Part shown: one piece after another, positions 54 through 24,161 of the stretch
Numbering within the stretch: the stretch's first letter is position 1
Layout: the number at the start of each line of letters is the position of its first letter
NCBI RefSeq assembly: GCF_056712565.1
Contig: NZ_CM160072.1
Strand: one strand, 5' to 3'
Length of the DNA stretch: 64,000 bases
Translations under genes and position numbers: made by a program
The notes under the pieces: generated by a model
What the model was told of the DNA's origin: nothing
What the model saw: the letters and a program-made list of their open reading frames with translations, nothing else
Database searches by the model: none

Positions 54-1190
54 GTGTCTGAAAGAAATTACGACTCTTCTGGCAGAAGAATTATCAAACA
101 GACGCGAAATGATGAAAAAGATTTGGGAGGTAAAGTACACCCTGTGTCATCTTCAAGCATCAAACCGGTAGTAGACTACTACATTAATGGAGATAATCTC
201 TATGAACCATTATCAATTCCCCCTTATGGAGTTAGAACTTATAAAGATACTTTTCAACTAATCATCTATAAAGAAGGAATTAGATATAATAAGCCAGCAA
301 TTTATTTTGGTAAAATTCAATCTAATATACGGCTGGAGATAAATTCGAATAGATATTACCTTACTTTTTTAGCCAGAAAGAAAGGTACCAAACAAGCATA
401 TAAACTTGAAATTGATGCTTCAGAATGGGATGAAAGTAAAAAGAGTTTTTTCTGTAGTGAGTATGAAAAACAAAGAGCAGAAGCAAATAAGTATTATAAT
501 GGACTAAAAGACAAGCGCAAAGCAACCAAATATCTTAATATTTTCTTTTTTGGTTTTCCTGATGAGTGCGATAGTTTTTTATTTAAGACTAGTTGTTTTA
601 AATTGATTTATATCGTTTTCTTAGATGATTTTGATGTGACTTATAATGACAAAAACTACAGCATAGAAAAAGAACAGCTAATTAGAGATGAAATTAACAA
701 AGAACATTTGACAGATCATCAAAATAGAATAAACCTTGCTGAGGTTGCTGAGGTTGCTGAGGTTGCTGAGGTTGCTGAGGTTGCTGAGGTTGCTGAGGTT
801 GCTGAGGTTGCTGAGGTTGCTGAGGTTGCTGAGGTTGCTGAGGTTGCTGAGGTTGCTGAGGTTGCTGAGGTTGCTGAGGTTGCTGAGGTTGCTGAGGTTG
901 CTGAGGTTGCTGAGGTTGCTGAGGTTGCTGAGGTTGCTGAGGTTGCTGAGGTTGCTGAGGTTGCTGAGGTTGCTGAGGTTGCTGAGGTTGCTGAGGTTGC
1001 TGAGGTTGCTGAGGTTGCTGAGGTTGCTGAGGTTGCTGAGGTTGCTGAGGTTGCTGAGGTTGCTGAGGTTGCTGAGGTTGCTGAGGTTGCTGAGGTTGCT
1101 GATTTTGACAAGAGCGAATTTAACCCTTCGGATTCTGATAGGAAAATATGGACTGGGATAAGAAAGCTTATTTCATTCTTTAAAAAATAG
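54..1190 (+). CDS. Hypothetical protein with C-terminal (Ala-Glu-Val)n tandem-repeat tract; reading frame is open to window start so the N-terminus may lie upstream
   Basis: 378-aa ORF in AT-rich DNA; about 40 consecutive AEV tripeptides encoded by perfect 9-bp repeat; no stop in frame between position 3 and 54. Confidence 0.45.
   Translation: MSERNYDSSGRRIIKQTRNDEKDLGGKVHPVSSSSIKPVVDYYINGDNLYEPLSIPPYGVRTYKDTFQLIIYKEGIRYNKPAIYFGKIQSNIRLEINSNRYYLTFLARKKGTKQAYKLEIDASEWDESKKSFFCSEYEKQRAEANKYYNGLKDKRKATKYLNIFFFGFPDECDSFLFKTSCFKLIYIVFLDDFDVTYNDKNYSIEKEQLIRDEINKEHLTDHQNRINLAEVAEVAEVAEVAEVAEVAEVAEVAEVAEVAEVAEVAEVAEVAEVAEVAEVAEVAEVAEVAEVAEVAEVAEVAEVAEVAEVAEVAEVAEVAEVAEVAEVAEVAEVAEVAEVAEVAEVAEVADFDKSEFNPSDSDRKIWTGIRKLISFFKK
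737..1100. repeat. Perfect 9-bp tandem repeat (GCTGAGGTT) x about 40, in frame within ORF 54..1190
   Basis: Directly visible in sequence; generates spurious ORFs in other frames (SATSAT.., LRLLRL..). Confidence 0.95.
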
Positions 1191-1221: not shown

Positions 1222-1257
1222 TGAAGTGGTACACTGAATTTGCCCACCTGAACAGAG
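1222..1257 (+). mobile_element. Solo IS3-family (IS911-like) terminal inverted-repeat remnant
   Basis: TGAAGTGGTACACTGAATTTGCCCACCTGAACAGAG matches the IS911 terminus seen at about 9880-9915 (reverse complement) with 2 mismatches; no adjacent transposase. Confidence 0.5.
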
Positions 1258-1321
1258 TTGGTTTTATCAAACTTGTAGTTTACTCAATGACGTAAAAATT
1301 GGTGATGTAAAGGATATAAAA

Positions 1322-3106
1322 ATGTGGTCAGACAAAGAGTCATCAGAAGACTACCTAAATTTTGGTGAAGTATCTCAGTTAGCCGTGGATGTACTTACCA
1401 CGAAAGATATGTTACCAGTATCTATCGGAATTTTTGGAAACTGGGGGGCAGGTAAATCCTCTCTGTTAAAACTGATAGAGCAAAAACTTGAGCAAGACGA
1501 CAAAGATTGGATTGTTATCAATTTTGACTCTTGGCTCTATCAGGGGTACGACGACACCCGTGCCGCACTTCTTGAAGTCATCGCTACAGAATTGACAAAA
1601 GCTGCTGAAGGTAATTCAGCCCTTATATCAAAAACTAAGAGACTCCTTAGTCGAGTTGATGGTTTTAGAGCTATGGGATTACTAGCTGAGGGTACAGCTT
1701 TAATGGCAGGATTACCTACTGGCGGTTTGCTTTCTAGGGGGATTGGTGCATTAAGAAATATCACCGATGGCATCCAGAGCCAGGAAGAGTATGAGGCTTT
1801 AGGCAATATAGCTAAAGAAGGTAAAGAAACTGCTTGTGGTTTGATTAAACCACAAACAAAAAAAAGCCCCCCTCAGCAGATTGATGCCTTTCGTAAGGAA
1901 TATGGGGAAATTCTAGAAGAACTTGGAAAGCCACTCATTGTGGTAATAGATAACCTAGACCGCTGTCTCCCTGCCAATGCTATCCATACACTTGAAGCTA
2001 TCAGGCTATTCCTTTTCTTGACTAATACAGCCTTTATTATTGCAGCAGATGAGGACATGATTCGCTCTTCTGTGGCTGATTACTTCAAAGGGGCATCACA
2101 GCGCCATCAAATAGATTATCTGGATAAGCTAATCCAGGTTCCTATTCGGGTGCCTAAGGCTGGGGTCCGTGAGATCCGTTCGTATCTGTTCATGCTTTAT
2201 GCCATTGAACATGGCTTAGAAGGCGAAAAAATAACTATGCTCCGTGAGGGCTTAGAGAAGGCGTTACAGCAATCCTGGAAAGATGAACCAATCTCACGTC
2301 AGGAGGCCTTAAAAATGACTGGTGAAGCGGATGATAGCAACCTCGCGCTGGCGTTTGCGCGTGCTGACCGTATTGCTCCCATTTTAGCCAACTCTCCAAT
2401 TATTCATGGTAATCCCAGGATCGTTAAACGCTTGTTGAATGTTGTGAAAATGCGATCTCAAATTGCGAAGCGACGAGCAATGCCTTTGGATGAAGCAATT
2501 ATTACTAAGCTAGTAATTTTTGAACGCTGTGTTGGAGTGGATGGCACCGCTGATTTATATCATCTCGTGGATATTGAACAAGGTGTTCCCCAGATACTTA
2601 AACAGCTTGACGATAATGGCGGTCAAATACCTACTGATGCACCAAAGACATGGACTGATAGTCCAACGACTAAATCTTTCATCAGTCAATGGGCCCAACT
2701 TGAACCTCGTCTTGGTGGGATTGACTTAAGGGCCGCCATATATCTGTCCCGAGAAACTATGCCAATAGGTGCATATGTGGTTGGTTTATCGCCATCTGGA
2801 CGGGAAGTACTAAATGCACTAATTGAATTGAAAAACACTAGTTCTCCTACAGCAGAAAACCTTTTGAAAGCACTTCCTCGTGAGGAGCAAATACCTGTAA
2901 TGGAAGGTTTAATTAACCAGTTACGGCAGGTATCAGATTGGGATCGTAAGCCCAGAGGCTTTTCCGGTGCATGTCTGTTGGCCCGCTACTCAACAGATGC
3001 AGCCAGCATATTAATTCGTTATCTACAGGAATTACAGTTGGGGATGAAACGACCAGCGTGGATGACTGCAGCATTAAAAGATGAACAATGGAATAAGGAC
3101 GCTTAA
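1322..3106 (+). CDS. qatA: KAP-family P-loop NTPase (QatA-like)
   Basis: Walker A GNWGAGKS, FDSWLYQGYDD motif after P-loop, Walker B VVIDNLDRC; 594 aa; first gene of 4-gene overlapping operon. Confidence 0.75.
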   Translation: MWSDKESSEDYLNFGEVSQLAVDVLTTKDMLPVSIGIFGNWGAGKSSLLKLIEQKLEQDDKDWIVINFDSWLYQGYDDTRAALLEVIATELTKAAEGNSALISKTKRLLSRVDGFRAMGLLAEGTALMAGLPTGGLLSRGIGALRNITDGIQSQEEYEALGNIAKEGKETACGLIKPQTKKSPPQQIDAFRKEYGEILEELGKPLIVVIDNLDRCLPANAIHTLEAIRLFLFLTNTAFIIAADEDMIRSSVADYFKGASQRHQIDYLDKLIQVPIRVPKAGVREIRSYLFMLYAIEHGLEGEKITMLREGLEKALQQSWKDEPISRQEALKMTGEADDSNLALAFARADRIAPILANSPIIHGNPRIVKRLLNVVKMRSQIAKRRAMPLDEAIITKLVIFERCVGVDGTADLYHLVDIEQGVPQILKQLDDNGGQIPTDAPKTWTDSPTTKSFISQWAQLEPRLGGIDLRAAIYLSRETMPIGAYVVGLSPSGREVLNALIELKNTSSPTAENLLKALPREEQIPVMEGLINQLRQVSDWDRKPRGFSGACLLARYSTDAASILIRYLQELQLGMKRPAWMTAALKDEQWNKDA

Positions 3107-3858
3107 TGGGAACATCACAATCAAGTAAAGGTCCAGGAGGTGGCTCTCCGCTGGTTCCACCATGGGCTGATGATCAGCCACAGCAACCGTTACCCTCGCC
3201 GCAAGAAAGGAGGTTTGCGCCATTTCGAGAATCGTTGGGAAATGCGGTATCAAATGGAAATCGAGCAGATTTCAGAAAAGCCATAGGGCACTACGCGCGA
3301 AAAGCCTCCGGAGGGAGCAGTAACGCTGCTCGGCGATTAGGGAGTGTCACGCAAGCTGGGGCCGAATTATTTGGGGCTTTAGTGGGAATGCCTTCGGCTC
3401 CCGGAGAACCAAGCATCGATTTGGGCAGTTTGGCAGGCCTTCCATGCGAAATAGCAATATCAACTATTGCTCAAGCTTTAACATCACAGGATGGTGACTC
3501 AGAAAAGATCTGTGCGGCCATGAACCATGCTTTAGTGGAGGCTCTTGATGGCGTAGAAATTTTCGATCCTCAAAAAATAACTGATGGTGTGATTGTTGAC
3601 ACAATGATTGGTTATCTAGCGGAAAGTATTTTCCTTCAGATGGTAATGGATTCTAATAGGGCATGGAACAAAGCAGATACACCTTCAAAGGCAATTCATG
3701 CAGAAATTGAACTCCGGGAATTGATTAAAGTTGTTGTTGATAAACATATGGCACCAAAACTTGCCGGTAACATAAGATCGTTCACACGAAACCAAATGGT
3801 AAAAATTGAACGTCAGGCCATTATTGAGGCCTGGCAAGAATGGGAGGCATACCAGTGA
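3106..3858 (+). CDS. qatB: Protein of unknown function (QatB-like position)
   Basis: 250 aa, Gly/Pro/Ser-rich N-terminus, no recognisable catalytic motif; start overlaps qatA stop, end overlaps next gene. Confidence 0.55.
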   Translation: MGTSQSSKGPGGGSPLVPPWADDQPQQPLPSPQERRFAPFRESLGNAVSNGNRADFRKAIGHYARKASGGSSNAARRLGSVTQAGAELFGALVGMPSAPGEPSIDLGSLAGLPCEIAISTIAQALTSQDGDSEKICAAMNHALVEALDGVEIFDPQKITDGVIVDTMIGYLAESIFLQMVMDSNRAWNKADTPSKAIHAEIELRELIKVVVDKHMAPKLAGNIRSFTRNQMVKIERQAIIEAWQEWEAYQ

Positions 3859-5159
3859 CACAATTAGTTTTCCATCATAAACATCACCATTTGCCGCCAG
3901 CAAGTGAGAAAGTGTTACCTGTTCAGCTATATGGATTAAGTGGTCAGAGGCGCGGAGATATATCTGTTATCGGGAATCCTGCGATTGATCGGATCAGACG
4001 TTTGGGAGTACAGCTTCCAGCTAAGGTCATGGATTTTCTGAGTGTTGCATTAGCAGTAACTGCAGCAGATACTTTCGTTCAGCGTGAAAGTTCCGAGGAT
4101 GGTTGGACCCGCCAATTGTCGTTACGACTCCCCCTTCATGAACCATCCAGATGGATTAGTCTAAAGAAAGAACTTGAGAGTGCTTTGCATTTTCTTAGTG
4201 GAGACATCTGGGATTTCGAATTTTGTGACGATGGTTATGCACCGCCAGAGCCTTATAGCCAGCATTCAAGGCATCGTCTGATTAAGCTAAAAGGGCTTGA
4301 CTGTGTCAGCTTATTTTCAGGAGGTCTGGATTCAGCTATTGGTGCAATAGATCTTCTGGCTGCAGGGCGCGCTCCACTTTTGGTTAGTCATGCTTATAAG
4401 GGGGACAAGTCTCGTCAAGATCAGATCGCTGAAAAATTAAGTGGCCAATTTTCGCGCTTTGAGATTAATGCTGACCCACACATTTATCAAGGCGTGACTG
4501 ATATTACGATGCGAACTCGTAGCCTCAATTTTCTTGCCTTTGCGGCCGTAGGTGCTTGTGCCGTACAAGAGATATCTCAACAAGAAAAGATTGATTTGTT
4601 CGTACCTGAAAATGGATTTATCTCATTAAATGCACCACTTACTCCACGGCGGATAGGTTCGCTGAGCACACGAACAACACATCCACATTTTATTACGAGC
4701 ATACAAAAGATCTTTGATGCGCTCGGTATTTCTTGTCAAATAATCAATCCATATCAGTTTAAGACAAAAGGAAAAATGATCTCCGAATGTTCAAATAAGC
4801 AGCTCTTATCTAAAATTGTGGAAAGTACAGTATCCTGCAGTCATTGGAAACGAATGGGGCAGCAATGTGGGGTATGTATACCGTGTATCATTCGACGAGC
4901 ATCACTTCATGCAGGGGGAATTAGTAGAGATGTTGAATATATTTTCCAGTCCTTAGCTAAAGTAATGAATGAAATAGATCGCAGGGACGACCTGATCGCC
5001 CTTAGGATTGCGATCACGCAGAAATCGACTTTGAAAATAGGTACATGGATTGCCAAAAGTGGCCCTTTGCCTACGGCAGAATTTGATAATTTCAAGCAAG
5101 TATTTAAGGATGGCCTAGATGAGGTTGAAAGCTATTTACTGAGTGAGAACATAGTATGA
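3840..5159 (+). CDS. qatC: QueC-like PP-loop ATPase family protein (QatC-like)
   Basis: PP-loop SGGLDS; C-terminal Cys cluster CSHWKRMGQQCGVCIPC resembling QueC zinc site; about 150 aa extra N-terminal region; 439 aa. Confidence 0.7.
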   Translation: MGGIPVTQLVFHHKHHHLPPASEKVLPVQLYGLSGQRRGDISVIGNPAIDRIRRLGVQLPAKVMDFLSVALAVTAADTFVQRESSEDGWTRQLSLRLPLHEPSRWISLKKELESALHFLSGDIWDFEFCDDGYAPPEPYSQHSRHRLIKLKGLDCVSLFSGGLDSAIGAIDLLAAGRAPLLVSHAYKGDKSRQDQIAEKLSGQFSRFEINADPHIYQGVTDITMRTRSLNFLAFAAVGACAVQEISQQEKIDLFVPENGFISLNAPLTPRRIGSLSTRTTHPHFITSIQKIFDALGISCQIINPYQFKTKGKMISECSNKQLLSKIVESTVSCSHWKRMGQQCGVCIPCIIRRASLHAGGISRDVEYIFQSLAKVMNEIDRRDDLIALRIAITQKSTLKIGTWIAKSGPLPTAEFDNFKQVFKDGLDEVESYLLSENIV

Positions 5160-5881
5160 GCATCGATATGCACTGTCATCTAGACTTATATCCTCGGCCA
5201 GACCTCGTGGCTGAAGAAAGTAAGCGTCGAGGGACTTATATTCTGTCGGTGACAACAACACCTAAAGCATGGCATGGTACTTCTTTATTGGCTAAAGAAA
5301 GTCAACGAATCCGAACTGCTCTTGGGCTACATCCTCAAATCGCGCATCAAAGATCGCATGAGTTAGACCTGTTTGATTCATTGCTTTCGGAAACTAAGTA
5401 TGTAGGGGAAATAGGGCTTGATGGTGGACAGGGATTTAAAGAACATTGGGATATTCAATTGAAAGTGTTCCGACACATTCTCAACAGTGTAAATCGGGCT
5501 GGTGGCAAGATTATGACTATCCATAGTCGGGGAAGTGCATCAGCGGTGCTTGATGAGATTGAAAATATCGATGGGGTGGCAATATTGCATTGGTTCACTG
5601 GAACACCTAAGCAGCTTGAAAGGGCAATTGATTTAGGATGCTGGTTCTCAGTGGGGCCTGCTATGCTCGATACAATAAAGGGTAAGGCCTTAGTTTTGAA
5701 AATACCCAAATCACGCATTCTTACAGAAACAGATGGGCCATTTGCTAAGTTTCGTAATGACCCACTAATGCCATGGGATAGTGGGATTGCAGAGAAACAG
5801 TTAGCCGCATTATGGGGGATTAGTCAGATGGAGGTTAATGCTCAGCTAGTTGATAATTTTAAGGTATTATGTACATCATAA
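5156..5881 (+). CDS. qatD: TatD-family metal-dependent hydrolase/nuclease (QatD-like)
   Basis: N-terminal DMHCHLD (HxH), EIGLD, C-terminal TETDGPF motifs typical of TatD; 241 aa; start overlaps qatC stop. Confidence 0.75.
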   Translation: MSIDMHCHLDLYPRPDLVAEESKRRGTYILSVTTTPKAWHGTSLLAKESQRIRTALGLHPQIAHQRSHELDLFDSLLSETKYVGEIGLDGGQGFKEHWDIQLKVFRHILNSVNRAGGKIMTIHSRGSASAVLDEIENIDGVAILHWFTGTPKQLERAIDLGCWFSVGPAMLDTIKGKALVLKIPKSRILTETDGPFAKFRNDPLMPWDSGIAEKQLAALWGISQMEVNAQLVDNFKVLCTS

Positions 5882-6433
5882 GAATGAAAAACTTAGATAT
5901 GCATTTACAGTTCAATTCATTTTTCGTCATCAGTTAATTACACATAAAATTAAAAGTAAGAATATATCTACCCTGTGAATGAGTAAGGCGGATTTATATA
6001 GTTTGTAATTAGTTTAAATGTAAGCAGTTCGTCAGAGTGCGTATTCCGCTCTATTCGATCACGGATTGGCCGTTATGACCCGATCTCGATGGAAGTTATT
6101 GGGTGATCCCCTTCCATGAAAATATGCACCGAAGCTCCCGCAGAGGTTTCCGTGGGCGAAGGCATGATTCTGTCCGAGAGCCGGATGTGTTAGAAGCGCA
6201 TGTCCGCTTCGATGAGCGGGGTGTGGAAACAGGATTTATGGTCAGGACAGTAAGGCACCGCCAATCGAAAGAGGCGGCAACAGATATGCCTGACCTGTAA
6301 AATTACCGCGCCACATCTTGACTCTACCCGTTTTCCAAGCGCCCCCCCTTATAGAACGTACACTGGATGGTGATACCGGCTATACATCGCATATTTGACA
6401 GTCAGCTTGCTGAATTTTTCATTGGCTGCAGCA

Positions 6434-7009
6434 TCAGGGCGTTTTCCAGATGACAGCTATAGTAAAAATGATCGCCAGACTGGCGAGAAAGCAGAGCGAA
6501 AGCGGGATTTTGTCCTTCAGTGTCAGGTTCAGCTCTTCTTCAACCCATGCTTTTTCAAATTCACAGTAAAATTTATAATGTGCGTACCAGTTACTTCCGA
6601 AGATCTGTTTGCTGATGACCGTGCCGTAAAACCGGGACATGATAGCGTCGATGGATTGTTGTGTACGCTGATAGTCAAAGTTTGCATCGCTTTTTACGTT
6701 GCGGTAGATGACTTCAAGTTCATTAAAAATTTTGGTCTGCTCAATCCCCGCACTTTCATAACTCTGCTTTTCCGAGTCATAAAACTGAATGTACATTGTA
6801 GCAACACCAAATATAATTAATATCGCGGAAATGACGTTTGTGGCCAGCTCAGGAATAAAAAGGGCGAACACACCGACAGCAAGAGAAATAAAGCTAATCC
6901 AACCGGATGCCTTACAAATCAGATCATAGGTGGCAAAGTTTTTCTTAGCGCCAAATCCAACGTTATAACCATGTCGGGCGATTAATTTCAGCATCTCTGA
7001 TTGCGTCAT
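6434..7009 (-). CDS. Small membrane protein, SLATT-like putative effector partnered with nucleotidyltransferase
   Basis: 191 aa; two central hydrophobic helices (WISFISLAVGVFALFIPELATNVISAILIIFGVATMYIQ) plus C-terminal hydrophobic segment; 7-nt gap after upstream gene. Confidence 0.5.
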   Translation of the reverse strand: MTQSEMLKLIARHGYNVGFGAKKNFATYDLICKASGWISFISLAVGVFALFIPELATNVISAILIIFGVATMYIQFYDSEKQSYESAGIEQTKIFNELEVIYRNVKSDANFDYQRTQQSIDAIMSRFYGTVISKQIFGSNWYAHYKFYCEFEKAWVEEELNLTLKDKIPLSLCFLASLAIIFTIAVIWKTP

Positions 7010-7016
7010 AAAAACC

Positions 7017-8345
7017 TCAGCTTATGGGAACTTCAATCTGGGCCCGGGCAACCACAACCTCATTTTTTATCACATAGCATTCTACCATGTGATCTCCGCG
7101 GAAGTCGGTAGTTTCTTTCTTCGTACAGTAGCCGCCGTCCGAAACGATTTGTCCCCGGATCATATTTCTTCTGCGTGCTTCGTCACCCACGTTCAGTACC
7201 TTCCACATAACGGTGTAGGGTTCCTCTGCCTCCATTTCTGTCAAGTCTGCCCGGAAAAGGAGAGATTTTCGAGCGGAGAGGCGGAATCTTCTGATAAGCA
7301 TCTCCCTCAGGCTTCTGGGAGGGAAACCATCCTGGGTTACGGTACAGTCAAGGTTGAGTGAGTACCTGATATCCACCGGATATTTATCCTCTATAAACTC
7401 TTCGGTATCGGTCCAGGGAACAGCATCTGCCGCATGCGATTCCAGACCAAGACGGGCTTCCATAATACCCACTTTACGTCTGGGGAAGGCTCGTCCGAAC
7501 ACTTTGCGCCAGCGGTCATTTTCACTGGCAGCCCCCTCAGCGTCTAAGGCATCACAACATAATTCATACGCGTGTTTCGCTGCCCGGCCAAACCAGGGAG
7601 ATTTAACACGTACATGCTGATTACTGCCTAACGCGAGATACCTTTCCTTTCTCTCCTCATTTGACAGATATTCAAAAAAGTCTCTGGCGAGGGCTCCCAG
7701 GCTGCCATTTCCGGTATTGTCATAATCTGATGTTGATGAAAGAAAGCGATACGCTAGTGTGTCTATCAGTAAGCCACCCATATTGACGCCATGCAGGTTC
7801 TTCCAGGCTCTGATCATTTTACACAGCTTGCGCAGATTATTGGATTTATCTCGCGAAAATGCGGTCATGGCCGCCTTTTCGTGAAGAGGTTTTGTAATGC
7901 GCCATGCTCCTCCATTATAGCTTTCAGGGAATTTAAAGCTGTCATCATCCTGTCTGAATACAGGTTGAACCTCGACATAAAAGTTTTTAAAGATGATCTG
8001 AACAACCAGTCTGTCCTTTTTCACAGTCTGGTCAGGATATTCTTCCGCCAGAATGTTTCTGACATCTGTAAGCAATGCAGACTGACCATTATCCTTACGG
8101 TTATAATATTCATACTGATTGGGGGGCATAATATAAAGCATATCCAGATCGGATATGCCTTTTATTGCGGTATGTCTGCCTACTGACCCCACTTTCAAGC
8201 GGTTTGCTACCCGGGAACTCGTTCCTCTGAACGCAAGATTTAATGACTTGGTTATTTTTCGATAGTGATAGCTGATCTTTTTTGCCTGTTTGAGGTCAAG
8301 ATTCAAATTTTCAAGAAATTCGCTGAACAATTCCCTGTGGCTCAT
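7017..8345 (-). CDS. SMODS/CD-NTase-like nucleotidyltransferase with about 120-aa C-terminal extension
   Basis: Pol-beta-type NTase signature GSVGRHTAIKGISDLD (GS-x10-[S]DhD) and downstream acidic strand YVEVQP; 442 aa. Confidence 0.55.
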   Translation of the reverse strand: MSHRELFSEFLENLNLDLKQAKKISYHYRKITKSLNLAFRGTSSRVANRLKVGSVGRHTAIKGISDLDMLYIMPPNQYEYYNRKDNGQSALLTDVRNILAEEYPDQTVKKDRLVVQIIFKNFYVEVQPVFRQDDDSFKFPESYNGGAWRITKPLHEKAAMTAFSRDKSNNLRKLCKMIRAWKNLHGVNMGGLLIDTLAYRFLSSTSDYDNTGNGSLGALARDFFEYLSNEERKERYLALGSNQHVRVKSPWFGRAAKHAYELCCDALDAEGAASENDRWRKVFGRAFPRRKVGIMEARLGLESHAADAVPWTDTEEFIEDKYPVDIRYSLNLDCTVTQDGFPPRSLREMLIRRFRLSARKSLLFRADLTEMEAEEPYTVMWKVLNVGDEARRRNMIRGQIVSDGGYCTKKETTDFRGDHMVECYVIKNEVVVARAQIEVPIS

Positions 8346-8448
8346 GGTGTTTCCTTTGGCATGTGAAACATTAGCTTACATTATCATTACACCTTATAAA
8401 AACCAAGATCTTGGGAGGTGAGCGTTCTGCATGGCTTTATGACTTAAA

Positions 8449-8666
8449 CGTAAGCGTTAACGGAGTGCCGTATTGACGCTTATTTATTGGTGAGTACTAC
8501 GTTCCATGGCAGGAGTTCGTCAACTCGGTTGGAAGGCCATTCCGGCAGTACGCTCAGGATATGGCTCAGATACGCTTCCGGATCGATATCGTTCAGTCGG
8601 CAGGTGCCGATCAGCCCGTACAACAGTGCTCCTCGCTCGCCGCCGTGATCGCTGCCGAAGAACATA
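8449..8666 (-). pseudogene. IS66-family transposase 3' fragment with element terminus (GTAAGCG...)
   Basis: 61-aa ORF ending ...LYGLIGTCRLNDIDPEAYLSHILSVLPEWPSNRVDELLPWN resembling IS66 TnpC C-terminus; GTAAGCG terminal motif at about 8449; abutted by IS911. Confidence 0.45.
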
Positions 8667-8685
8667 ATGAATCGCCACGGATAAT

Positions 8686-9498
8686 CTAGACACTTCCGAG
8701 CCGTTGATAATACTGGTTTTCATATTCTGTCGGTGACATCTGTTCGCTAGAACCATGCCGACGCTTACTGTTATAAAACATTTCGATGTAATCAAAAATA
8801 TCACTGCGGGCTTCTTCCCGCATTCCGTAGATCTTTTTCTTTATCCGTTCACGTTTCAACAACTGGAAAAAACTTTCTGCAACCGCATTATCATGGCAGT
8901 TACCGCGACGGCTCATGCTACCCTCCAGGCCGTGTGATTTCAGGAACGACTGCCACTCATGGCTTGTGTACTGACTGCCCTGATCCGAATGAACCAGCAC
9001 CTGTTTTTCGGGATTACGCCGCCATACAGCCATCAGCAGTGCGTTCAGGACAATGTCCTTTGTCATCCGGGATTGCATGGACCAGCCGATAATTTTGCGT
9101 GAGAACAGATCAACAACAACGGCAAGATACAGCCAGCCTTCGTGGGTCCTGATGTAGGTTATGTCCGTTACCCAACGCTCATCAGGAGCATCCGGATTGA
9201 ACTGTCGCTGGAGCCTGTTGGGTGACATGATACTGGCCTCGCCTTTACGTGCCCGCGGGCTTCGGTATCCGACCTGAGCCTTTATTCCGACACGTTTCAT
9301 CAGTCTCCAGACTCTGTTTACTCCGCACTGTTGCCCGCTGTCACGCAGATCCAGATGGATTTTGCGATAACCATAGACGCATCCCGATTCCAGCCAGAAC
9401 TGTTTAATCTGTCCTGTCAGTCTCAGGTCTGCCTGATGGCGTTGTGAATGCGGCTGCTGAAGCCAGGCGTAAAAACCACTGGGATGAACATCCAGCAC
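8686..9498 (-). CDS. IS911 transposase OrfB (DDE integrase domain)
   Basis: 270-aa ORF with IS3-family catalytic region (HSDQGSQYTS.., CHDNAVAESFF). Confidence 0.8.
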   Translation of the reverse strand: MLDVHPSGFYAWLQQPHSQRHQADLRLTGQIKQFWLESGCVYGYRKIHLDLRDSGQQCGVNRVWRLMKRVGIKAQVGYRSPRARKGEASIMSPNRLQRQFNPDAPDERWVTDITYIRTHEGWLYLAVVVDLFSRKIIGWSMQSRMTKDIVLNALLMAVWRRNPEKQVLVHSDQGSQYTSHEWQSFLKSHGLEGSMSRRGNCHDNAVAESFFQLLKRERIKKKIYGMREEARSDIFDYIEMFYNSKRRHGSSEQMSPTEYENQYYQRLGSV

Positions 9499-9554
9499 CC
9501 GACAGAGCAGGCGAACAGGCCAGCAACAGGTGTTGTCACGGATAAAGGCGTACC

Positions 9555-9842
9555 TCAGTCGGACAGCTTTGCGAAGTACGCCGCCTTTTTTAATATTTCA
9601 TTCTCCATTTCAATGCGTTGTAGCTTTTTCCTCAGCTTACGTATTTCGATTTGTTCTGGTGTTATCGGAGAGGCTTTTGGTGTTTTGCCCTGACGCTCAT
9701 CACGCAGTTGTTTGACCCATCTTGTCATTGTGGAAAGGCCAACATCCATAGCTTTGGCGGCATCTGCCACCGTGTATTTCTGGTCAACAACCAGTTGAGC
9801 GGATTCGCGTTTAAACTCTGCGCTAAAATTTCTTTTTTTCAT
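9555..9842 (-). CDS. IS911 OrfA (HTH transposition protein)
   Basis: [49 protein letters not shown].. ; start trimmed to internal Met. Confidence 0.75.
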
Positions 9843-9915
9843 TGGAGCACCTGTGTTGTTCTGAGGTGAGCATATCACCTCTGTTCAGGTGGCCAAATTC
9901 AGTGTGCCACTTCAA

Positions 9916-10289
9916 GCCGGGAGCGGCGTCAGCCAGTCTCCCTTTACCCGCGCTTTTTCGGAAAGCCCACCCCAATGTTTTTCTCCTACACCCCAGCCGG
10001 TCAGCAGGACCTTATCCCCGGTCTGATATTCAGGATGTGAGCTGGCGGACACTGTACCGGCAAAATCAATGCCTGGCACCATTGGAAAGTGCCGGACGAT
10101 AGGCCCGCGGCCCGTAATAGCCAGTGCGTCTTTGTAGTTGATAGATGAACAGTCGACATTGACCTCCACATCCCCCTGTGGCAGCTCGCTTTCAGCGATT
10201 TCAGCAATTTGGGCACTGTGGCGACCATACATCTTACTGATTAATAAGGATTTAAACATTTTTTTCTCGTCTTTCTGGTTTGATGTCAT
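9916..10289 (-). pseudogene. N-terminal fragment of YhdH/AcuI-like NADPH-dependent quinone oxidoreductase, truncated by IS911
   Basis: 125-aa ORF with [34 protein letters not shown] motifs of MDR superfamily; ends at the IS911 terminus. Confidence 0.6.
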
Positions 10290-10859
10290 TGAGCTATAAA
10301 GTAGTCAATAAACAATATTGACCGATCGTCTAATAATCAACGCTGATATCCCAGTGTTTGTCAGAAAACAAGAATTGCTTTTCTTTTCATCAGGTTAAAT
10401 CTATCTTTTTTGATTTATATCAAACCAGATTCGGTCTTCAATTATATAGGCATCAATGTTAGCGGTCCTACAAGATACGCAGTCGATGCTTCAGGGCGTA
10501 CTGATGAAATAAAACAAGTAGGCTGAGATTAGTTGGTCTGCTCATCGCTCACAGCGGACCTTCAGCTTCGTTAGCCAAGCGCTGACATAGTTACCGATGT
10601 AGCGTGTTAATCTGTCGGGAGCATAGCCGAAATCACTTAACCCATTAGACTTCACCTAAAACTGCAAAAATTACCGTCTTTGTCACACTCACCGAGTTTA
10701 ATCAAACTAACACTGTACATAGTGCGAACAAGAGCCAACCAGAAAGACTGTTCAGCATCAACAGTGAAGTTTTTCCCCGCTACTTCCCCGCAATTCTTCC
10801 GCAGTTTTCCCACTAGAGAGTTCGACACATCCCTTGCATACCAACGCTTTGATTCAAAT

Positions 10860-11627
10860 CTCGGTAGTGCATCCAATTAGTAGAATATGTGTTTTTCGAT
10901 AAATGCTCCGATCACTTTTTCGTGGATCTCAACTGAGCGTGAGAAGCAGATTGTTTACGAGCCAACCGCTTAATGTGGGTGCGTAGCGTCAGATTATTAC
11001 GCTCAATGCGTTGGGTGAATATTTTGCCGGTCAGATGCTTATTCTTCGGCACCACCCGGCCATAGCTGTCCCAGTCATCGCTGGTGAGCATGCCGATGTT
11101 GAAGGGTGTAAGCAGTGCCAGTAGCTCCCGGCACGTTTGATCGGTTCGGGGACCAAAAGTGTAGGCCAGTACACCGCCTGTTTTGGTGTTGTACGCGTAC
11201 CAGAGCCAGTGTAGCCGGGCTTTACTGCCAACGTAGCTCCATTGCTCATCAAGCTCGCAGATAAGCGCCACATCAGCATGGGCAACAGGCGAAGAAGTTA
11301 TTTGCGTTGGTGCGAGTTTTTTAAAGTCCGGATGATGGTGTTAATACCAATTTTCAGTGTCCTGGCGGTATCGCGAACCCCGGCACCATTAAAGGCCATT
11401 TCAGTGATCATCTCTTTCATACCCGGCTTACGTGCTTGATAAGTATAAGTGAGCTGAAACACACGGTGGCAGTCACGGCAGCGAAATCTGTCACGGCCTT
11501 TAGGGTTCTGACCATGGCGGTAAACCTGAGCTGACTGACAACGGGGACAATGAATATTAACGCTGGCCATGAGATAACCTCAAAAGCCCGTATTATACAT
11601 CAGATTCAACCAATTAGAGGCATCACC
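10860..11627 (-). mobile_element. Divergent IS1-family insertion sequence
   Basis: InsA-like (11298..11570) and InsB-like (10912..11271) ORFs; ends resemble IS1 IRs (GGTAGTGCATCCAA... / ...GGCATCACC); InsA only about half identical to the canonical IS1 InsA at 17483. Confidence 0.65.
11298..11570 (-). CDS. insA: IS1-family InsA-like protein (divergent isoform)
   Basis: 90 aa, Zn-finger CPRCQS..CRDCHR and HTH resembling IS1 InsA. Confidence 0.7.
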   Translation of the reverse strand: MASVNIHCPRCQSAQVYRHGQNPKGRDRFRCRDCHRVFQLTYTYQARKPGMKEMITEMAFNGAGVRDTARTLKIGINTIIRTLKNSHQRK

Positions 11628-11822
11628 CTTTCCTACATTCGTAGGACTTTGATTACATATAGCAAGGGTTAATTCTTATATACATAGAATAAATTAGGAA
11701 TATAATGAATTTTATCGTGACGACCTTATTTATAATTAATTTATATTGTCAGAGAAATTAGTGTCCACAACATGAAGCCTTACAAAGAGATTCTATGATT
11801 TAAAAAAAATAAGAGCCAGCTT

Positions 11823-13292
11823 ATGCATATCGATTCGACTGAAAAAAATAATAAACAAAAGTTGGGCTTGCTTGCGCTAACATCCATTGTCGTGAGCTCG
11901 ATGATCGGCAGCGGCGTTGACGGACTCCCCCAGAATATGGCGGAGAATTCTGCCGTGGGCCCGGTGGCGATAGCATGGATAGTCTGTGGTATCGGCATGT
12001 TTTTCATCTCCAGAACTTTTATCGTGCTGTCAAACATTAGACCTGATCTCCAGTCAGGAGTTTATATGTATGCCCGGGAAGGGTTCGGCCGATTTACGGC
12101 ATTTAACGTCGCCTGGGGCTACTGGCTGATGACTATATTCAGCAACGTCGCCTTTGCCATTATGGTGATGGATACGCTGAATTATTTCTTACCAGGTGAT
12201 TTCAAGGGAGGGAACAATATTCCTTCCGTTATCGGTGCCTCTTTGCTGATATGGGGATTCAACTTTTTAGTCCTCTCCGGTACCCGCATTGCCGGGTCGA
12301 TTAACATCGTCGGCACGCTGGCCAAACTGATCCCGCTGGTGGCCTTTATTATTATTCTCATGCTGTTTATGAAGTACACCACGTTCGCAGATAACGTCTG
12401 GGGGCACAGCGCGAGTAAGGCCAGTCAGGACCTAGGCTCTATTTTCTCACAGGTAACTTCACCGCTTAGCGTGGCACTCTGGAGCTTCATCGGCGTTGAG
12501 GGGGCTGTCGCTCTTTCCGGTCGGGCCAAAAATAAACGCGACGTGGGTAAAGCCACATTCATTGGCTTCGTTGTATCACTGATTATCTGTCTGCTGGTCT
12601 CCATCCTGCCGTTTGGCGTGCTGACTCAACATGAGCTCAGCGCAATTCCAACCCCATCCACCGCCGGTATTCTGAAGATTGTTGTCGGTGAATGGGGGAA
12701 GATTATGATTATCTTGGGGGTGCTGATTTCGGTGCTTACCAGCTGGCTGGCGTGGACCATCATCTGCGCCGAACTGCCTATGGTGGCCGCGCAGAACGGC
12801 ACATTCCCGAAACCGTTCAGCAAAAAAAATGTGAAGGGTTCGGCCTCGGTTTCGCTTTATATAAGCAGTGCGTTTATGCAAATCGTCGTACTTCTGGTCT
12901 ACTTTTCTAACGATGCCTGGCTTGCAATGCTGGCTATCTCTACCCTGACCGTTTTACCTGCGTATTTAATGACCACGGCATACCTGTTTAAACTATGTAT
13001 TAGCGGCGAGTATGCCAGCTATACCACGAATCACAGCCGCAGCGCCGCGCTGGTCAGCAGTATTATCGGCTTTGTATTCTGCCTGTTTATGTTCTACGCC
13101 AGTGAAATCAAATATCTGGCGATGGTTCCGGTGCTGCTTACGCTGGGCGTGCCCCTGTTTATCTGGGCAAGAAAAAAAGACGATCGCGCAGATAAAATAT
13201 TTACGCTACGCGAACTGGCATTTTTTATTTTACTGCTGGTCCTCGACATCATTGTTTTTATTCTACTGCATTATAAAACGATACATTTTTAG
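11823..13292 (+). CDS. APC-superfamily basic amino acid antiporter, ArcD/YdgI-like (paralog 1)
   Basis: 489 aa polytopic; N-terminal KLGLLALTSIVVSSMIGSGV..LPQNMA and GVYMYAREGFG, FIGVEGAV..SGRAKNKRDVGKAT motifs as in arginine:ornithine-type antiporters. Confidence 0.7.
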   Translation: MHIDSTEKNNKQKLGLLALTSIVVSSMIGSGVDGLPQNMAENSAVGPVAIAWIVCGIGMFFISRTFIVLSNIRPDLQSGVYMYAREGFGRFTAFNVAWGYWLMTIFSNVAFAIMVMDTLNYFLPGDFKGGNNIPSVIGASLLIWGFNFLVLSGTRIAGSINIVGTLAKLIPLVAFIIILMLFMKYTTFADNVWGHSASKASQDLGSIFSQVTSPLSVALWSFIGVEGAVALSGRAKNKRDVGKATFIGFVVSLIICLLVSILPFGVLTQHELSAIPTPSTAGILKIVVGEWGKIMIILGVLISVLTSWLAWTIICAELPMVAAQNGTFPKPFSKKNVKGSASVSLYISSAFMQIVVLLVYFSNDAWLAMLAISTLTVLPAYLMTTAYLFKLCISGEYASYTTNHSRSAALVSSIIGFVFCLFMFYASEIKYLAMVPVLLTLGVPLFIWARKKDDRADKIFTLRELAFFILLLVLDIIVFILLHYKTIHF

Positions 13293-13396
13293 TCCAGATT
13301 AATTCACAGCAAGTTAAGGTGACGATAATGTCTGTTTCTTGGGCATGACATCCTCACAGTTAAATACTATCTGAACAGTAACCGTGGAGACACCTA

Positions 13397-15766: not shown

Positions 15767-15840
15767 GCGGGGGAAAGAACAATACCGTCGGATCGCCTGC
15801 AATCCGACGGCAATATTATAGAATAGCTGAGGGAAACGTT

Positions 15841-17340
15841 ATGGCAGAGCAATCTTCAGATGTAAAAAATAGTGACAATAGCGCCGGAGGACATAAGCTG
15901 GGGCTTATATCCCTCATCGCTATTGTCGTTAGCTCCATGCTGGGAGGCGGCGTTTTCAGTCTGCCGCAAAACACGGCGGCCTCTTCTGCACTAGGGCCAG
16001 TAATCATTGCATGGATTATTGCCGGGATCGGTATTTATTTTATCGCAAACTCCTTTCGCGTACTATCAGATCTGCGCCCGGACCTTCAGGCTGGAGTGTA
16101 TATGTATGCCCAGGAAGGTTTTGGTTCCTTTATTGGCTTTAACGTCGCCTGGGGCTACTGGCTGATGACCGCATTTGGCAACGTTGCCTTTGCGGTAATT
16201 TTAATGGATGCTTTTAATCAGTTTATGCCGGGGGTTTTTACGGATGGTAATAATCTGAACTCCATTATCTGCGGCTCAGTGCTGATCTGGGGCTATAATT
16301 TTCTTGTTCTGTCCGGGACGAAAGTGGCCGGATTTGTTAACACCTTGGGAACCATCGCCAAGCTCGTCCCTCTGATCCTATTCGTATTACTGCTGGGTGT
16401 GCTGATCGATTATTCGGACCTGTTTAAAAACTTTTGGGGAGAATCACCCGCGATCCTCAGTGGCAACGGAAATGACGCCGCACCAGTATCGCTGCTGTCT
16501 CAGATTCTGGCACCGATGACCGTAACGCTCTGGGCCTTTATTGGCGTCGAGGGAGCGGTTGTTCTATCCGGACGTGCCAAAAATAAACAGGACGTAGGGA
16601 AAGCCACACTGATCGGCTTTCTGCTGGCGCTAATTATTTATATGTTAATGTCCATTCTGCCGTTCGGTGTAATGCCTCAGGCAGAACTAGCGCAGGTCAG
16701 TAACCCCTCTACCGCAGGCGTGCTCGCCCACGTTGTCGGTCAGTGGGGCGACTGGCTGATGAGCGCGGGGCTGATTATTTCTGTTCTGGCCGGCTGGCTT
16801 GCCTGGACCATGCTATGCGCTGAAATACCGATGGTCGCAGGACAGAAAGGCGCTTTCCCGCGCGCGTTTGCCCGAACGAACAGTAAACAGGCGGCCAATG
16901 TGTCACTGTGGGTTAGTAGCTTTGTGATGCAGGCGGCCATGTTACTTGTTTATTTTTCAAATAATGCTTGGACCACCATGTATAATATCAGTGCGCTGAT
17001 GGTTGTTCCGGCCTATATTACCACCACGCTGTATCTGACCAGTATTTGCAGAAACGGAAAATATGATCAGTATGCAAAAAAAGGCCGCAGGCTGGCTTTG
17101 TCCAGCGGTGTTTTAGGCTCGCTATTCTGTCTGTTTATTCTTTACGCCAGCCAGATTGAGTATGTTGCATTAATTCCTATCCTGTTGACCTGTGGTCTGC
17201 CGGTCTTTATCTGGTCAAGAAAAGAAAAAAATGATGGTCAGCCGATATTTACCAAAAAAGAGCTGATTTATCTGATTATGCTGTTGCTGTGCGATATTAT
17301 CGTCGTTGCCCTGTTTATTGGTGGATATTTAAAGGTATAA
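15841..17340 (+). CDS. APC-superfamily basic amino acid antiporter, ArcD/YdgI-like (paralog 2)
   Basis: 499 aa; same motif set as 11823..13292 (KLGLISLIAIVVSSMLGGGVFSLPQN..). Confidence 0.7.
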   Translation: MAEQSSDVKNSDNSAGGHKLGLISLIAIVVSSMLGGGVFSLPQNTAASSALGPVIIAWIIAGIGIYFIANSFRVLSDLRPDLQAGVYMYAQEGFGSFIGFNVAWGYWLMTAFGNVAFAVILMDAFNQFMPGVFTDGNNLNSIICGSVLIWGYNFLVLSGTKVAGFVNTLGTIAKLVPLILFVLLLGVLIDYSDLFKNFWGESPAILSGNGNDAAPVSLLSQILAPMTVTLWAFIGVEGAVVLSGRAKNKQDVGKATLIGFLLALIIYMLMSILPFGVMPQAELAQVSNPSTAGVLAHVVGQWGDWLMSAGLIISVLAGWLAWTMLCAEIPMVAGQKGAFPRAFARTNSKQAANVSLWVSSFVMQAAMLLVYFSNNAWTTMYNISALMVVPAYITTTLYLTSICRNGKYDQYAKKGRRLALSSGVLGSLFCLFILYASQIEYVALIPILLTCGLPVFIWSRKEKNDGQPIFTKKELIYLIMLLLCDIIVVALFIGGYLKV

Positions 17341-17482
17341 GTCCGAGTTAAATCTTTACTGGGCTAGTAATGCCGCCTTTTAAACAAGAAGGGCGGCAAT
17401 CTTACTGAAATTAGTATGCTGCAAATCGGTAATGCTGCCAACTTACTGATTTAGTGTATGATGGTGATTTTAAGGTGCTTGC

Positions 17483-17758
17483 GTGGCTTCCATTTCCATC
17501 AGATGTCCTTCCTGCTCCGCTACTGAAGGCGTGGTGCGTAACGGCAAAAGCACTGCCGGACATCAGCGCTATCTCTGCTCTCATTGCCGTAAAACATGGC
17601 AACTGCAGTTCACTTACACCGCTTCTCAACCCGGTACGCACCAGAAAATCATTGATATGGCCATGAATGGCGTTGGATGCCGGGCAACTGCCCGCATTAT
17701 GGGCGTTGGCCTCAACACGATTTTACGTCACTTAAAAAACTCAGGCCGCAGTCGGTAA
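17483..17758 (+). CDS. insA: IS1 InsA
   Basis: [40 protein letters not shown]... 91 aa. Confidence 0.9.
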
Positions 17759-20157: not shown

Positions 20158-20172
20158 GGTAATGACTCCAAC

Positions 20173-24160: not shown

Positions 24161-24161
24161 T

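What the first reader, a model, noticed from the sequence alone, without database searches (positions are those of the whole stretch)
1322..5881. Four-gene Qat-type anti-phage operon (KAP NTPase, unknown protein, QueC-like protein, TatD-like nuclease)
Four co-directional genes with overlapping stop/start codons (3106, 3840-3858, 5156-5159) encode, in order: a KAP P-loop NTPase (GNWGAGKS, FDSWLYQGYDD, VVIDNLDRC), a 250-aa protein with no assignable domain, a QueC-like PP-loop protein (SGGLDS plus C-terminal Cys cluster CSHWKRMGQQCGVCIPC) carrying an extra N-terminal region of about 150 aa, and a TatD-family hydrolase (HCH and TETDGP motifs). To my recollection this is the architecture published as the Qat defence system, whose mechanism is still unknown. 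The QueC-like component suggests ATP-dependent nucleobase or small-molecule adenylation chemistry, and the TatD component a nuclease effector. The operon sits in lower-GC DNA inside a tRNA-Phe island, immediately after an IS inverted-repeat remnant.
Basis: partly seen in the sequence, partly recalled or inferred. Interest (0 to 1): 0.85.

Follow-up and report, generated by a model that had tools for sequence, protein, structure and literature searches.

The report
Known QatABCD anti-phage operon in E. coli
This is an intact copy of the already described QatABCD anti-phage defence operon, identical to one found in about 250 sequenced E. coli genomes and already cloned and tested by others, so it is real but ordinary.

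Summary
Four co-directional, overlapping genes at 1322-5881 match the PADLOC QatA, QatB, QatC and QatD models end to end (E from 0 to 6e-97). All the cited motifs are present. The DNA is 100% identical to a locus in E. coli ATCC 11775, APEC O1 and others, where RefSeq already labels qatC and qatD. Primers published for cloning "qatABCD of E. coli 46-1" bind the window at 697-717 and 6518-6537, so this locus type has already been tested. It gave about 10-fold protection against cytosine-containing T4, and QatD H59A or D193A abolished that protection.

The statement that the mechanism is unknown is partly out of date. Three structural studies from 2025-26 show a 1:1 QatB-QatC core, with the QatB N-terminus (MGTS, Gly2) inserted in the QatC PP-loop active site. 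The ligated substrate is still unidentified.

New here, but minor:
- This is a diverged clade. QatC is 37-38% identical to both crystallised QatCs. QatB is 250 aa and about 17% identical. QatA and QatB fall below the NCBIfam cut-offs.
- The operon sits next to a type I CBASS in 239 of 242 genomes.
- It lies 53 nt downstream of a solo IS3-family end.

Verdict: already known, low interest.

The parts
1322..3106 (+). qatA: KAP-family P-loop NTPase, 594 aa. Walker A is GNWGAGKS (aa 39-46). Walker B is VVIDNLDRC (aa 207-215), with D210.
   Evidence: PADLOC QatA PDLC02210 scores 1129.9 bits over 1-593 of 593. Pfam KAP_NTPase is 2.9e-53. NCBIfam QatA scores 383.8 bits, below its 600 cut-off. Orthologues in Pseudomonas, Shewanella and Xenorhabdus align without gaps at 70-89% identity.
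3106..3858 (+). qatB: 250 aa. N-terminal MGTS motif (Gly2), a conserved tail MGTSQSS.GPGG.SPLVPPWADDQPQQP, then an all-alpha globular domain. It is the presumed protein substrate of QatC.
   Evidence: PADLOC QatB PDLC02212 scores 432.9 bits over 1-249 of 248. NCBIfam QatB scores 74.6 bits, below its 100 cut-off. Relatives carry PF28083, named QatB. The alignment of 18 relatives is A2. The AF2 model has pLDDT 85 with residues 1-25 disordered. Foldseek against PDB hits only QatB chains 9y01_A and 9y02_A (probability 1.00, TM 0.58/0.66).
3840..5159 (+). qatC: QueC-like PP-loop ATP pyrophosphatase, 439 aa, or 434 aa if it starts at GTG 3855. Key residues: SGGLDS 160-165, H184, R227, F231, T277 and T279 (within STRTTHP), and Zn ligands C333/C343/C346/C349. 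It has N- and C-terminal extensions around the QueC core.
   Evidence: PADLOC QatC scores 466.8 bits. NCBIfam QatC scores 413.4 bits against a 280 cut-off, while canonical QueC TIGR00364 scores only 21.2 against 150.3. PDB QatC 9zee_B matches at 2.9e-63 and 9vlk_A at 6.6e-54. Identity to them is 37.8% and 36.9%.
5156..5881 (+). qatD: TatD-family metal-dependent nuclease, 241 aa. Key residues: H6, H8, H59, E85, H123, H145 and D193.
   Evidence: PADLOC QatD scores 322 bits. NCBIfam QatD scores 331.5 bits against a 230 cut-off. Pfam TatD_DNase is 3e-43. PDB 9xsn_A matches at 5.6e-75 and 3gg7_A at 6e-66. H59 and D193 are the residues mutated in bioRxiv 10.1101/2022.06.16.496414.
1222..1269 (+). 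Solo IS3-family terminal inverted repeat, a left-end remnant that points towards qatA. It marks the left boundary of the cassette in E. coli and is not part of the Qat system itself.
   Evidence: It forms a 48-nt inverted repeat with 9867-9914 at 85% complementarity. Pattern search found 2 matches against 0 expected by chance. The same stretch hits IS3-family ends on Escherichia and Shigella plasmids at 86.5-93%. Homology with the Xenorhabdus qat cassette begins only at about 1308.

Best explanation
This is an intact QatABCD anti-phage defence operon. It lies in the tRNA-Phe genomic island of a phylogroup-B2-type E. coli.

Shown here or in the literature:
- QatC is a QueC-derived PP-loop ATP pyrophosphatase that has lost preQ0 synthesis.
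- QatC forms a 1:1 complex with QatB.
- After Met1 is removed, the QatB N-terminus (Gly2 of the MGTS motif) sits in the QatC active site.
- The QatC PP-loop, the T-x-T pair that replaces the Tyr/Asp deazaguanine-recognition residues, and QatB Gly2 are all essential for defence.

Inferred:
- During infection QatC adenylates a still unidentified carboxylate or keto substrate and ligates it to the alpha-amine of QatB Gly2. This parallels Cap9 deazaguanylating the CD-NTase in type IV CBASS.
- The modified QatB tail also binds QatD. The modification then changes what QatB does to QatD, and the TatD nuclease degrades phage DNA.
- QatA is a DNA-binding ring ATPase that widens or tunes the phage range.

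My probabilities: that this is a Qat system, about 0.97. That a QatBC-centred N-terminal modification is the core mechanism, about 0.6. That QatD is the executing nuclease in this clade, about 0.5.
For: Identity of the locus:
- Full-length PADLOC matches to QatA, B, C and D.
- NCBIfam QatC and QatD pass their cut-offs.
- Pfam KAP_NTPase and TatD_DNase match.
- The DNA is 100% identical to annotated qat loci, and 259 of 5426 complete E. coli genomes hold a match.

Features required by the published model are all present in this copy:
- QatB MGTS and LVPPW, with tail residues 1-28 nearly invariant across 18 diverse relatives.
- A disordered tail followed by the QatB fold.
- QatC SGGLDS, T277/T279 and Cys4.
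- QatD H59 and D193.

Literature:
- QatBC complex, and the requirement for Gly2 and the PP-loop: PMC13279940, PMC13376578, bioRxiv 10.1101/2025.11.03.686418.
- QatC does not complement a queC deletion: PMC13329287.
- The same locus type was cloned with primers matching 697-717 and 6518-6537. It gave about 10-fold defence against T4(C), which QatD H59A or D193A abolished, and purified QatD degrades DNA.
Against: - No modification of QatB has been detected in vivo or in vitro, and no ATP pyrophosphatase activity was found with CDG.
- In the P. aeruginosa system, QatB and QatC alone protect against lambda-vir. A nuclease effector is therefore not always needed.
- This clade is only 37-38% (QatC) and about 17% (QatB) identical to the proteins that were crystallised. 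Transferring structural detail to it is an inference.
- The reported activity of this locus type is weak, at 10-fold and only against unmodified T4.
- No sigma-70-like promoter was found on the + strand between 1000 and 1322, and an IS end lies 53 nt upstream. Expression in this strain is untested.
Confidence: 0.9

Rival explanations
1. A restriction-like model. QatC makes a 7-deazaguanine (or other) modification of host DNA that marks self, and QatD degrades unmodified phage DNA. This was the early reading of QueC plus TatD and is part of the PhageMaP model.
For: QatC belongs to the QueC superfamily. QatD degrades DNA in vitro, and only T4 with unmodified cytosine is restricted. The PhageMaP preprint proposes protection of the host genome by the QueC-like protein.
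Against: - QatC scores 21.2 bits against the 150.3 cut-off for canonical QueC.
- The Tyr/Asp deazaguanine-recognition residues are replaced by T277/T279.
- QatC does not restore queuosine in a queC deletion strain.
- There is no CDG-dependent activity.
- The conserved four-gene cassette contains no transglycosylase (TGT or DpdA-like) gene.
- Purified QatD cut modified and unmodified T4 DNA equally.
Confidence: 0.05
2. An abortive-infection model through the membrane. QatB depolarises the membrane, in the manner of RexAB, and this triggers dormancy and QatD activity.
For: Bas63 genes 84 and 85 are RIIA/RIIB homologues. They counter qatABCD, and deleting either lowers plating by 10^4 to 10^5.
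Against: - QatB is a soluble all-alpha globular protein that crystallises 1:1 with QatC.
- The model made here has no membrane-like features and matches only QatB chains.
- Growth curves for this locus type were read as direct targeting rather than abortive infection.
Confidence: 0.05
3. The operon is a silent passenger in this strain. It is structurally intact but poorly expressed or not expressed, because an IS insertion replaced its native upstream region.
For: - A solo IS3-family end at 1222-1269 lies 53 nt before the qatA ATG.
- Homology to other qat cassettes starts only at about 1308.
- No promoter-like site was found on the + strand upstream.
- The locus cloned with its 'native' upstream region gave only 10-fold protection.
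Against: - All four ORFs are intact, with catalytic residues conserved.
- The sequence is at least 99% identical in 253 records, although that is also what recent clonal spread would give.
- The upstream gene is co-directional with no terminator-like site between it and qatA on the + strand, so read-through is possible.
- Some activity was measured.
Confidence: 0.15

Closest known systems
QatABCD of E. coli 46-1 (Wang et al., bioRxiv 10.1101/2022.06.16.496414; J Virol 2023)
   Same: Apparently the same locus type. The published cloning primers match the window at 697-717 (1 mismatch) and 6518-6537 (exact). The mutated QatD residues H59 and D193 exist at those numbers here.
   Different: The reported amplicon is 5635 bp, against 5841 bp between the primer sites here. 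The 206-bp difference is within one base of 23 units (207 bp) of the 9-nt tandem repeat at 736-1102. The sequence of 46-1 itself was not available for comparison.
QatABCD of E. coli NCTC9009 (Gao et al. 2020; structures 9vlk and 9vll, and the Zhang-group QatBC)
   Same: Same four-gene order and the same domains. Shared motifs are the MGTS N-terminus of QatB, SGGxDS, T-x-T and Cys4 of QatC, Walker B D210 in QatA, and the TatD catalytic residues.
   Different: - QatC is 36.9% identical.
- QatB is detectable only at E 1.2e-08 and is 250 aa here, against a 282-aa chain there.
- The Zn loop is C-x9-CGxCxxC here, against the C-x19 consensus reported in PMC13329287.
- QatA and QatB score below the NCBIfam cut-offs.
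- PADLOC holds separate QatA and QatB models for the two clades.
QatABCD of Pseudomonas aeruginosa (PMC13279940; 9zee/9zef in the sequence search, and most likely 9y01/9y02 in the fold search, whose titles match that paper although the entries name no organism)
   Same: QatBC core, active-site residues and the conserved LVPxW tail motif. The predicted QatB fold matches 9y01_A.
   Different: QatC is 37.8% identical and QatB about 17%. That QatB and QatC alone suffice against lambda-vir was shown there, not for this clade.
Type IV CBASS Cap9-CdnD deazaguanylation
   Same: A QueC-family enzyme holds the Gly2 N-terminus of a partner protein in its PP-loop active site.
   Different: - There is no Cap10 or TGT-like gene.
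- QatC lacks the Tyr/Asp CDG-recognition pair.
- QatB is unrelated to CD-NTases.
- No NDG was detected on QatB.
- The CD-NTase next door (7017-8345) starts MSHREL rather than MGGS, and it belongs to a type I CBASS.

Membership tests
QatABCD anti-phage system | Four co-directional genes in the order KAP ATPase, QatB, QueC-like protein, TatD nuclease, tightly coupled | tested here: met
   The same gene sizes (594, 250, 434 or 439, 237 or 241 aa) and order occur in Pseudomonas, Shewanella, Xenorhabdus and metagenomic loci.
QatABCD anti-phage system | QatA: KAP-family P-loop NTPase with Walker A and Walker B (D210) | tested here: met
   PADLOC PDLC02210 scores 1129.9 bits. Pfam PF07693 is 2.9e-53. 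GNWGAGKS is at aa 39-46 and VVID at 207-210.
QatABCD anti-phage system | QatB: N-terminal MGTS (Gly2) on a long disordered tail carrying the conserved LVPxW, then an all-alpha domain with the QatB fold | tested here: met
   The sequence starts MGTSQSSKGPGGGSPLVPPW. These positions are invariant across 18 relatives. In the AF2 model residues 1-25 have pLDDT below 50 and the rest is helical. Foldseek hits only QatB chains. PADLOC QatB scores 432.9 bits.
QatABCD anti-phage system | QatC: SGGxDS PP-loop, Cys4 zinc site, T-x-T in place of the QueC Tyr/Asp pair, and N- and C-terminal extensions | tested here: met
   SGGLDS is at 160-165, T277 and T279 are present, and the zinc ligands are C333/C343/C346/C349. 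The alignment to 9zee_B and 9vlk_A spans residues 46-434. NCBIfam QatC scores 413.4 bits against a 280 cut-off.
QatABCD anti-phage system | QatD: TatD-family hydrolase with intact metal-binding and catalytic residues | tested here: met
   NCBIfam QatD scores 331.5 bits against a 230 cut-off. Pfam TatD_DNase is 3e-43. H6, H8, H59, E85, H123, H145 and D193 are all present.
QatABCD anti-phage system | Confers phage resistance when expressed | not testable with these tools
   Literature only. The locus type amplified by primers that match this window gave about 10-fold protection against T4(C).
QatABCD anti-phage system | QatB-QatC 1:1 complex with the QatB N-terminus in the QatC active site | not testable with these tools
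   This was shown for the NCTC9009 and P. aeruginosa proteins. No complex-prediction tool was available here.
NCBIfam NF041923 (QatA) and NF041924 (QatB) equivalogs, which are narrower models | Score at or above the curated cut-off | tested here: not met
   QatA scores 383.8 against 600, and QatB scores 74.6 against 100. These models evidently represent the other clade, which explains the RefSeq labels 'KAP family P-loop NTPase fold protein' and 'hypothetical protein'. One newer record does name QatB.
Canonical QueC (preQ0 synthase, TIGR00364 / PF06508) | Full-length match above the cut-off, and the Tyr/Asp CDG-binding residues | tested here: not met
   TIGR00364 scores 21.2 bits against 150.3. 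Pfam QueC matches only as fragments, at 3.3e-4 and 0.22. T277 and T279 replace Tyr and Asp.
Type IV CBASS (CD-NTase + Cap9 + Cap10) | A CD-NTase with an MGGS N-terminus, a minimal QueC-like Cap9 and a TGT-like Cap10 in one operon | tested here: not met
   The adjacent cyclase is on the opposite strand and starts MSHREL. Its partner is a SLATT/2TM effector, which makes the pair a type I CBASS. None of the genes called or annotated in the cassette or next to it is TGT-like.

The most novel reading that the evidence does not exclude
The 250-aa-QatB clade represented here may be a mechanistically distinct Qat subtype. Its features are:
- QatC is about 37% identical to both crystallised QatCs.
- The zinc loop is 10 residues shorter.
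- The 28-residue QatB N-terminal tail is nearly invariant from Escherichia to Nitrosomonas and Desulfobulbaceae.
- QatA aligns without gaps at 70-89% identity across genera.

A distinct subtype could, for example, use a different first substrate, or depend strictly on QatD as its effector. Separately, its near-obligate pairing with a type I CBASS in E. coli (239 of 242 genomes) could reflect functional cooperation rather than hitch-hiking on one island.
Probability: 0.12. Interest if true: 0.5.

Novelty: already known. Interest (0 to 1): 0.15.

Why it matters
Qat is interesting as a system. What QatC ligates to the QatB N-terminus, and how that stops phage, is still an open question. This finding does not advance that question, because the locus is a textbook copy that is already annotated, counted in surveys and cloned.

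Three practical points do come out of the check:
1. NCBIfam's QatA and QatB models miss this clade, which is common in E. coli, so most RefSeq records still call QatB 'hypothetical'.
2. Anyone cloning it 'with native promoter' from about 1250 would start inside an IS remnant, with only about 50 nt of upstream sequence. A promoter may well be missing from such a clone.
3. This clade would be a useful second, diverged test case for the QatB-modification model.

Tried and rejected
- **QatA structure.** An AF2 model from a 6-sequence alignment had mean pLDDT 49.9 and pTM 0.33. That is too poor for a fold search, so I say nothing about the C-terminal domain. QatA also has no sequence relative in the PDB.
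- **Composite transposon.** I asked whether 1222-9914 (qat, CBASS and the IS) is a transposable unit bracketed by the two IS ends. The flanking bases (TGG on the left, AGC on the right) are not a target-site duplication. The Xenorhabdus cassette lacks both the IS end and the CBASS. I treat the arm at 1222 as the remnant of a second IS copy.
- **True qatC start.** I tried to settle it from homologous loci. Both ATG and GTG are conserved, because they overlap the invariant QatB C-terminus EWEAYQ*. Gene callers split between 439 and 434 aa. This stays unresolved.
- **Papers not held.** Gao et al. 2020 (Science), Wang et al. 2023 (J Virol) and Wassarman et al. 2025 (Science) are not in the library. 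Their content is cited second-hand or from the preprint.
- **Rfam.** Only the tRNA was found in 1-26000.
- **Promoter scan.** Nothing was found on the + strand upstream of qatA.
Full report
**1. Observation**

The window holds four + strand ORFs at 1322-3106 (594 aa), 3106-3858 (250 aa), 3840-5159 (439 aa) and 5156-5881 (241 aa).

- A/B is TAATG, a 1-nt overlap at 3106.
- B/C is a 19-nt overlap between qatB and the qatC ATG at 3840.
- C/D is ATGA at 5156-5159.

One refinement concerns the qatC start. A GTG at 3855 gives the classic 4-nt GTGA overlap, and a GGGAGG Shine-Dalgarno lies 7 nt upstream of it. Gene callers choose 434 aa or 439 aa in different homologous loci. Both starts are conserved because they overlap the invariant QatB C-terminus, so the true start is undecided.

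The operon has 43.8% GC, against 52.0% for the part of the window beyond tRNA-Phe. The tRNA-Phe lies at 24162-24237 on the - strand. In the identical APEC O1 region an integrase sits beside it. That tRNA is followed by dicD and dsbD, so I take it to be pheU; the record labels it only tRNA-Phe. The 'IS inverted-repeat remnant' is also real (see section 5).

**2. What it is**

- All four proteins match the PADLOC Qat models essentially end to end. QatA scores 1129.9 bits, QatB 432.9, QatC 466.8 and QatD 322.
- NCBIfam QatC (413.4 bits against a 280 cut-off) and QatD (331.5 against 230) pass their curated thresholds.
- Pfam gives KAP_NTPase at 2.9e-53, TatD_DNase at 3e-43 and only fragmentary QueC matches.
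- The 250-aa protein has no hit in the Pfam copy used by profile_search. Its relatives, however, carry the newer PF28083, named QatB.
- An AF2 model of QatB (pLDDT 85, residues 1-25 disordered, otherwise helical) has only two significant PDB neighbours. Both are QatB chains from QatB-QatC crystals, with probability 1.00 and TM 0.58/0.66.

**3. It is already known**

- The 4.75-kb stretch is 100% identical to loci in E. coli ATCC 11775, APEC O1 and many ST95-type genomes. It matches in 259 of 5426 complete genomes, and 253 records are at least 99% identical. RefSeq already names qatC and qatD there.
- A survey preprint reports qatABCD enriched in E. coli subgroup B2-2, and both co-occurring and co-localising with type I CBASS.
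- The primers published for cloning 'qatABCD from E. coli 46-1' bind this window at 697-717 (one mismatch) and 6518-6537 (exact).
- The residues that study mutated, QatD H59 and D193, exist at exactly those positions here.
- That clone protected about 10-fold against T4 with unmodified cytosine only. H59A or D193A abolished the protection, and purified QatD degraded DNA.

This locus type has therefore been tested experimentally.

**4. How it works (current knowledge)**

Three structural studies cover the E. coli NCTC9009 and P. aeruginosa systems. They show the following:
- QatB and QatC form a 1:1 complex.
- Met1 of QatB is removed, and Gly2 of the conserved MGTS motif sits in the QatC PP-loop active site.
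- QatB G2D, QatC SGGxDS mutants and QatC T-x-T mutants all lose defence.
- The QatB tail also binds QatD.
- QatA binds DNA and forms a heptamer or octamer.
- In P. aeruginosa, QatB and QatC alone protect against lambda-vir.

QatC does not complement a queC deletion. It shows no CDG-dependent ATP pyrophosphatase activity, and no adduct on QatB has been detected.

The best-supported model is therefore this: QatC adenylates an unidentified first substrate and transfers it to the QatB N-terminal amine, analogous to Cap9 and CdnD in type IV CBASS. The downstream steps are inferred. I think the likeliest route is through QatD, which is bound to the same tail.

Every residue this model needs is intact in the window:
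- QatB: MGTS and LVPPW.
- QatC: S160/D164/S165, H184, R227, F231, T277/T279, and C333/C343/C346/C349.
- QatA: K45 and D210.
- QatD: H6, H8, H59, E85, H123, H145 and D193.

**5. What is specific to this copy**

It belongs to a clade distinct from both crystallised systems:
- QatC is 36.9% identical to the NCTC9009 protein and 37.8% to the P. aeruginosa protein.
- QatB is about 17% identical in structural alignment, and is detectable only at E 1e-8 and 2e-4 by sequence.
- The QatC zinc loop is C-x9-CGxCxxC rather than the reported C-x19 consensus.
- NCBIfam QatA (383.8 against 600) and QatB (74.6 against 100) fall below their cut-offs. That explains the 'hypothetical protein' label in most RefSeq records.
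- PADLOC holds separate QatA and QatB models, and this clade matches one of each perfectly.

Within the clade the cassette is strikingly uniform. QatA (594 aa) aligns without gaps at 70-89% identity across Pseudomonas, Shewanella, Xenorhabdus and an environmental genome. QatB is 250 aa at 60-90% identity, with residues 1-28 nearly invariant. The cassette rides on different vehicles: a Tn3-family context on an IncC conjugative Xenorhabdus plasmid, an integrase cluster on a Shewanella plasmid, and chromosomal islands elsewhere.

**6. Surroundings**

- Convergent with qatD lies a type I CBASS. It comprises a cyclase at 7017-8345 (-), matching PADLOC at 585.7 bits, and a SLATT/2TM effector at 6434-7009 (-), matching at 273.1 bits.
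- Of 242 genomes holding at least 80% of the qat operon, 239 hold the contiguous qat-plus-CBASS segment.
- The cyclase begins MSHREL rather than MGGS, so it is not an obvious QatC substrate.
- A 48-nt IS3-family end at 1222-1269 is inverted relative to the end (9867-9914) of an intact IS3-family element. Together the two ends bracket qat, CBASS and the IS.
- I saw no target-site duplication, and other genera lack this arrangement. I read the arm at 1222 as the remnant of a second IS copy.
- Homology with other qat cassettes starts only at about 1308, and no sigma-70-like site was found upstream on the + strand. The promoter used in E. coli is therefore unknown.

**7. Verdict**

Interest is low (0.15). 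The residual novelty is that this is a diverged, uncrystallised clade and is almost always paired with CBASS I. Either point could hide a mechanistic difference. I put that at about 0.12.

Noticed in passing
window 6434-8345 (- strand): A type I CBASS lies convergent with qatD. It comprises a CD-NTase-like cyclase (7017-8345, PADLOC Cyclase 585.7 bits) and a SLATT/2TM effector (6434-7009, 273.1 bits; NCBIfam SLATT_6 223 bits). RefSeq labels them only 'nucleotide-binding domain-containing protein' and 'SLATT domain-containing protein'. The pair is contiguous with qat in 239 of the 242 E. coli genomes that hold the operon.
   Followed up: yes
window 1222-1269 and 9867-9914: A 48-nt inverted repeat, 85% complementary. 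One arm is a solo IS3-family end 53 nt upstream of qatA. The other is the orfA-proximal end of an intact IS3-family element at about 8630-9914. Together they bracket qat, CBASS and the IS. No target-site duplication was seen.
   Followed up: partly
window 736-1102 (within the + strand ORF that runs from the window start to 1190): A perfect 9-nt tandem repeat of 40.8 copies at 100% identity. It encodes (AEV)n inside a hypothetical protein of about 480 aa just upstream of qatA. There are 40 AEV units here and 42 in APEC O1. The annotated CDS is 144 nt longer in isolate AF18, and the published 46-1 amplicon is 206 bp shorter, so this looks like a variable-number repeat. Its function is unknown. 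There is one weak PADLOC hit, to PD-Lambda-4_B at 1.2e-4.
   Followed up: partly
window 3840-3858: The qatC start codon is ambiguous. ATG 3840 gives a 19-nt overlap with qatB. GTG 3855 gives a GTGA overlap, with a GGGAGG Shine-Dalgarno 7 nt upstream. Annotations of homologous loci split between 439 and 434 aa.
   Followed up: partly
window 1322-3858 (qatA, qatB): The NCBIfam equivalog models for QatA and QatB miss this common E. coli clade (383.8 against 600 bits, and 74.6 against 100). Most RefSeq records therefore call QatB 'hypothetical protein'. One newer record (NZ_OZ547212.1) does name it QatB.
   Followed up: yes
window about 6034-6071 (intergenic, between qatD and the SLATT gene): A stretch of about 35 nt is 100% identical to sites on many unrelated E. 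coli plasmids and chromosomes. One such site lies under an IS110-family transposase annotation. It is probably the end or scar of a small mobile element. A 65-aa ORF at 6103-6300 lies beside it.
   Followed up: no
window 8480-24237: The rest of the tRNA-Phe island holds IS3-family and IS1 copies and fragments, a basic amino acid/polyamine antiporter - Orn/Lys/Arg decarboxylase - antiporter cluster (11823-17340), a MarR-family regulator, and the integrase (22699-23964) beside tRNA-Phe (24162-24237). In APEC O1 the island continues to the left of the window into a grp glycyl-radical propanediol microcompartment locus and a group II intron reverse transcriptase/maturase.
   Followed up: no
window 53671-53969: Three tandem tRNA-Gly(GCC) genes. 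They are probably the E. coli glyV-glyX-glyY cluster, though no annotated record was checked for this part of the window. The region is ordinary core genome.
   Followed up: no
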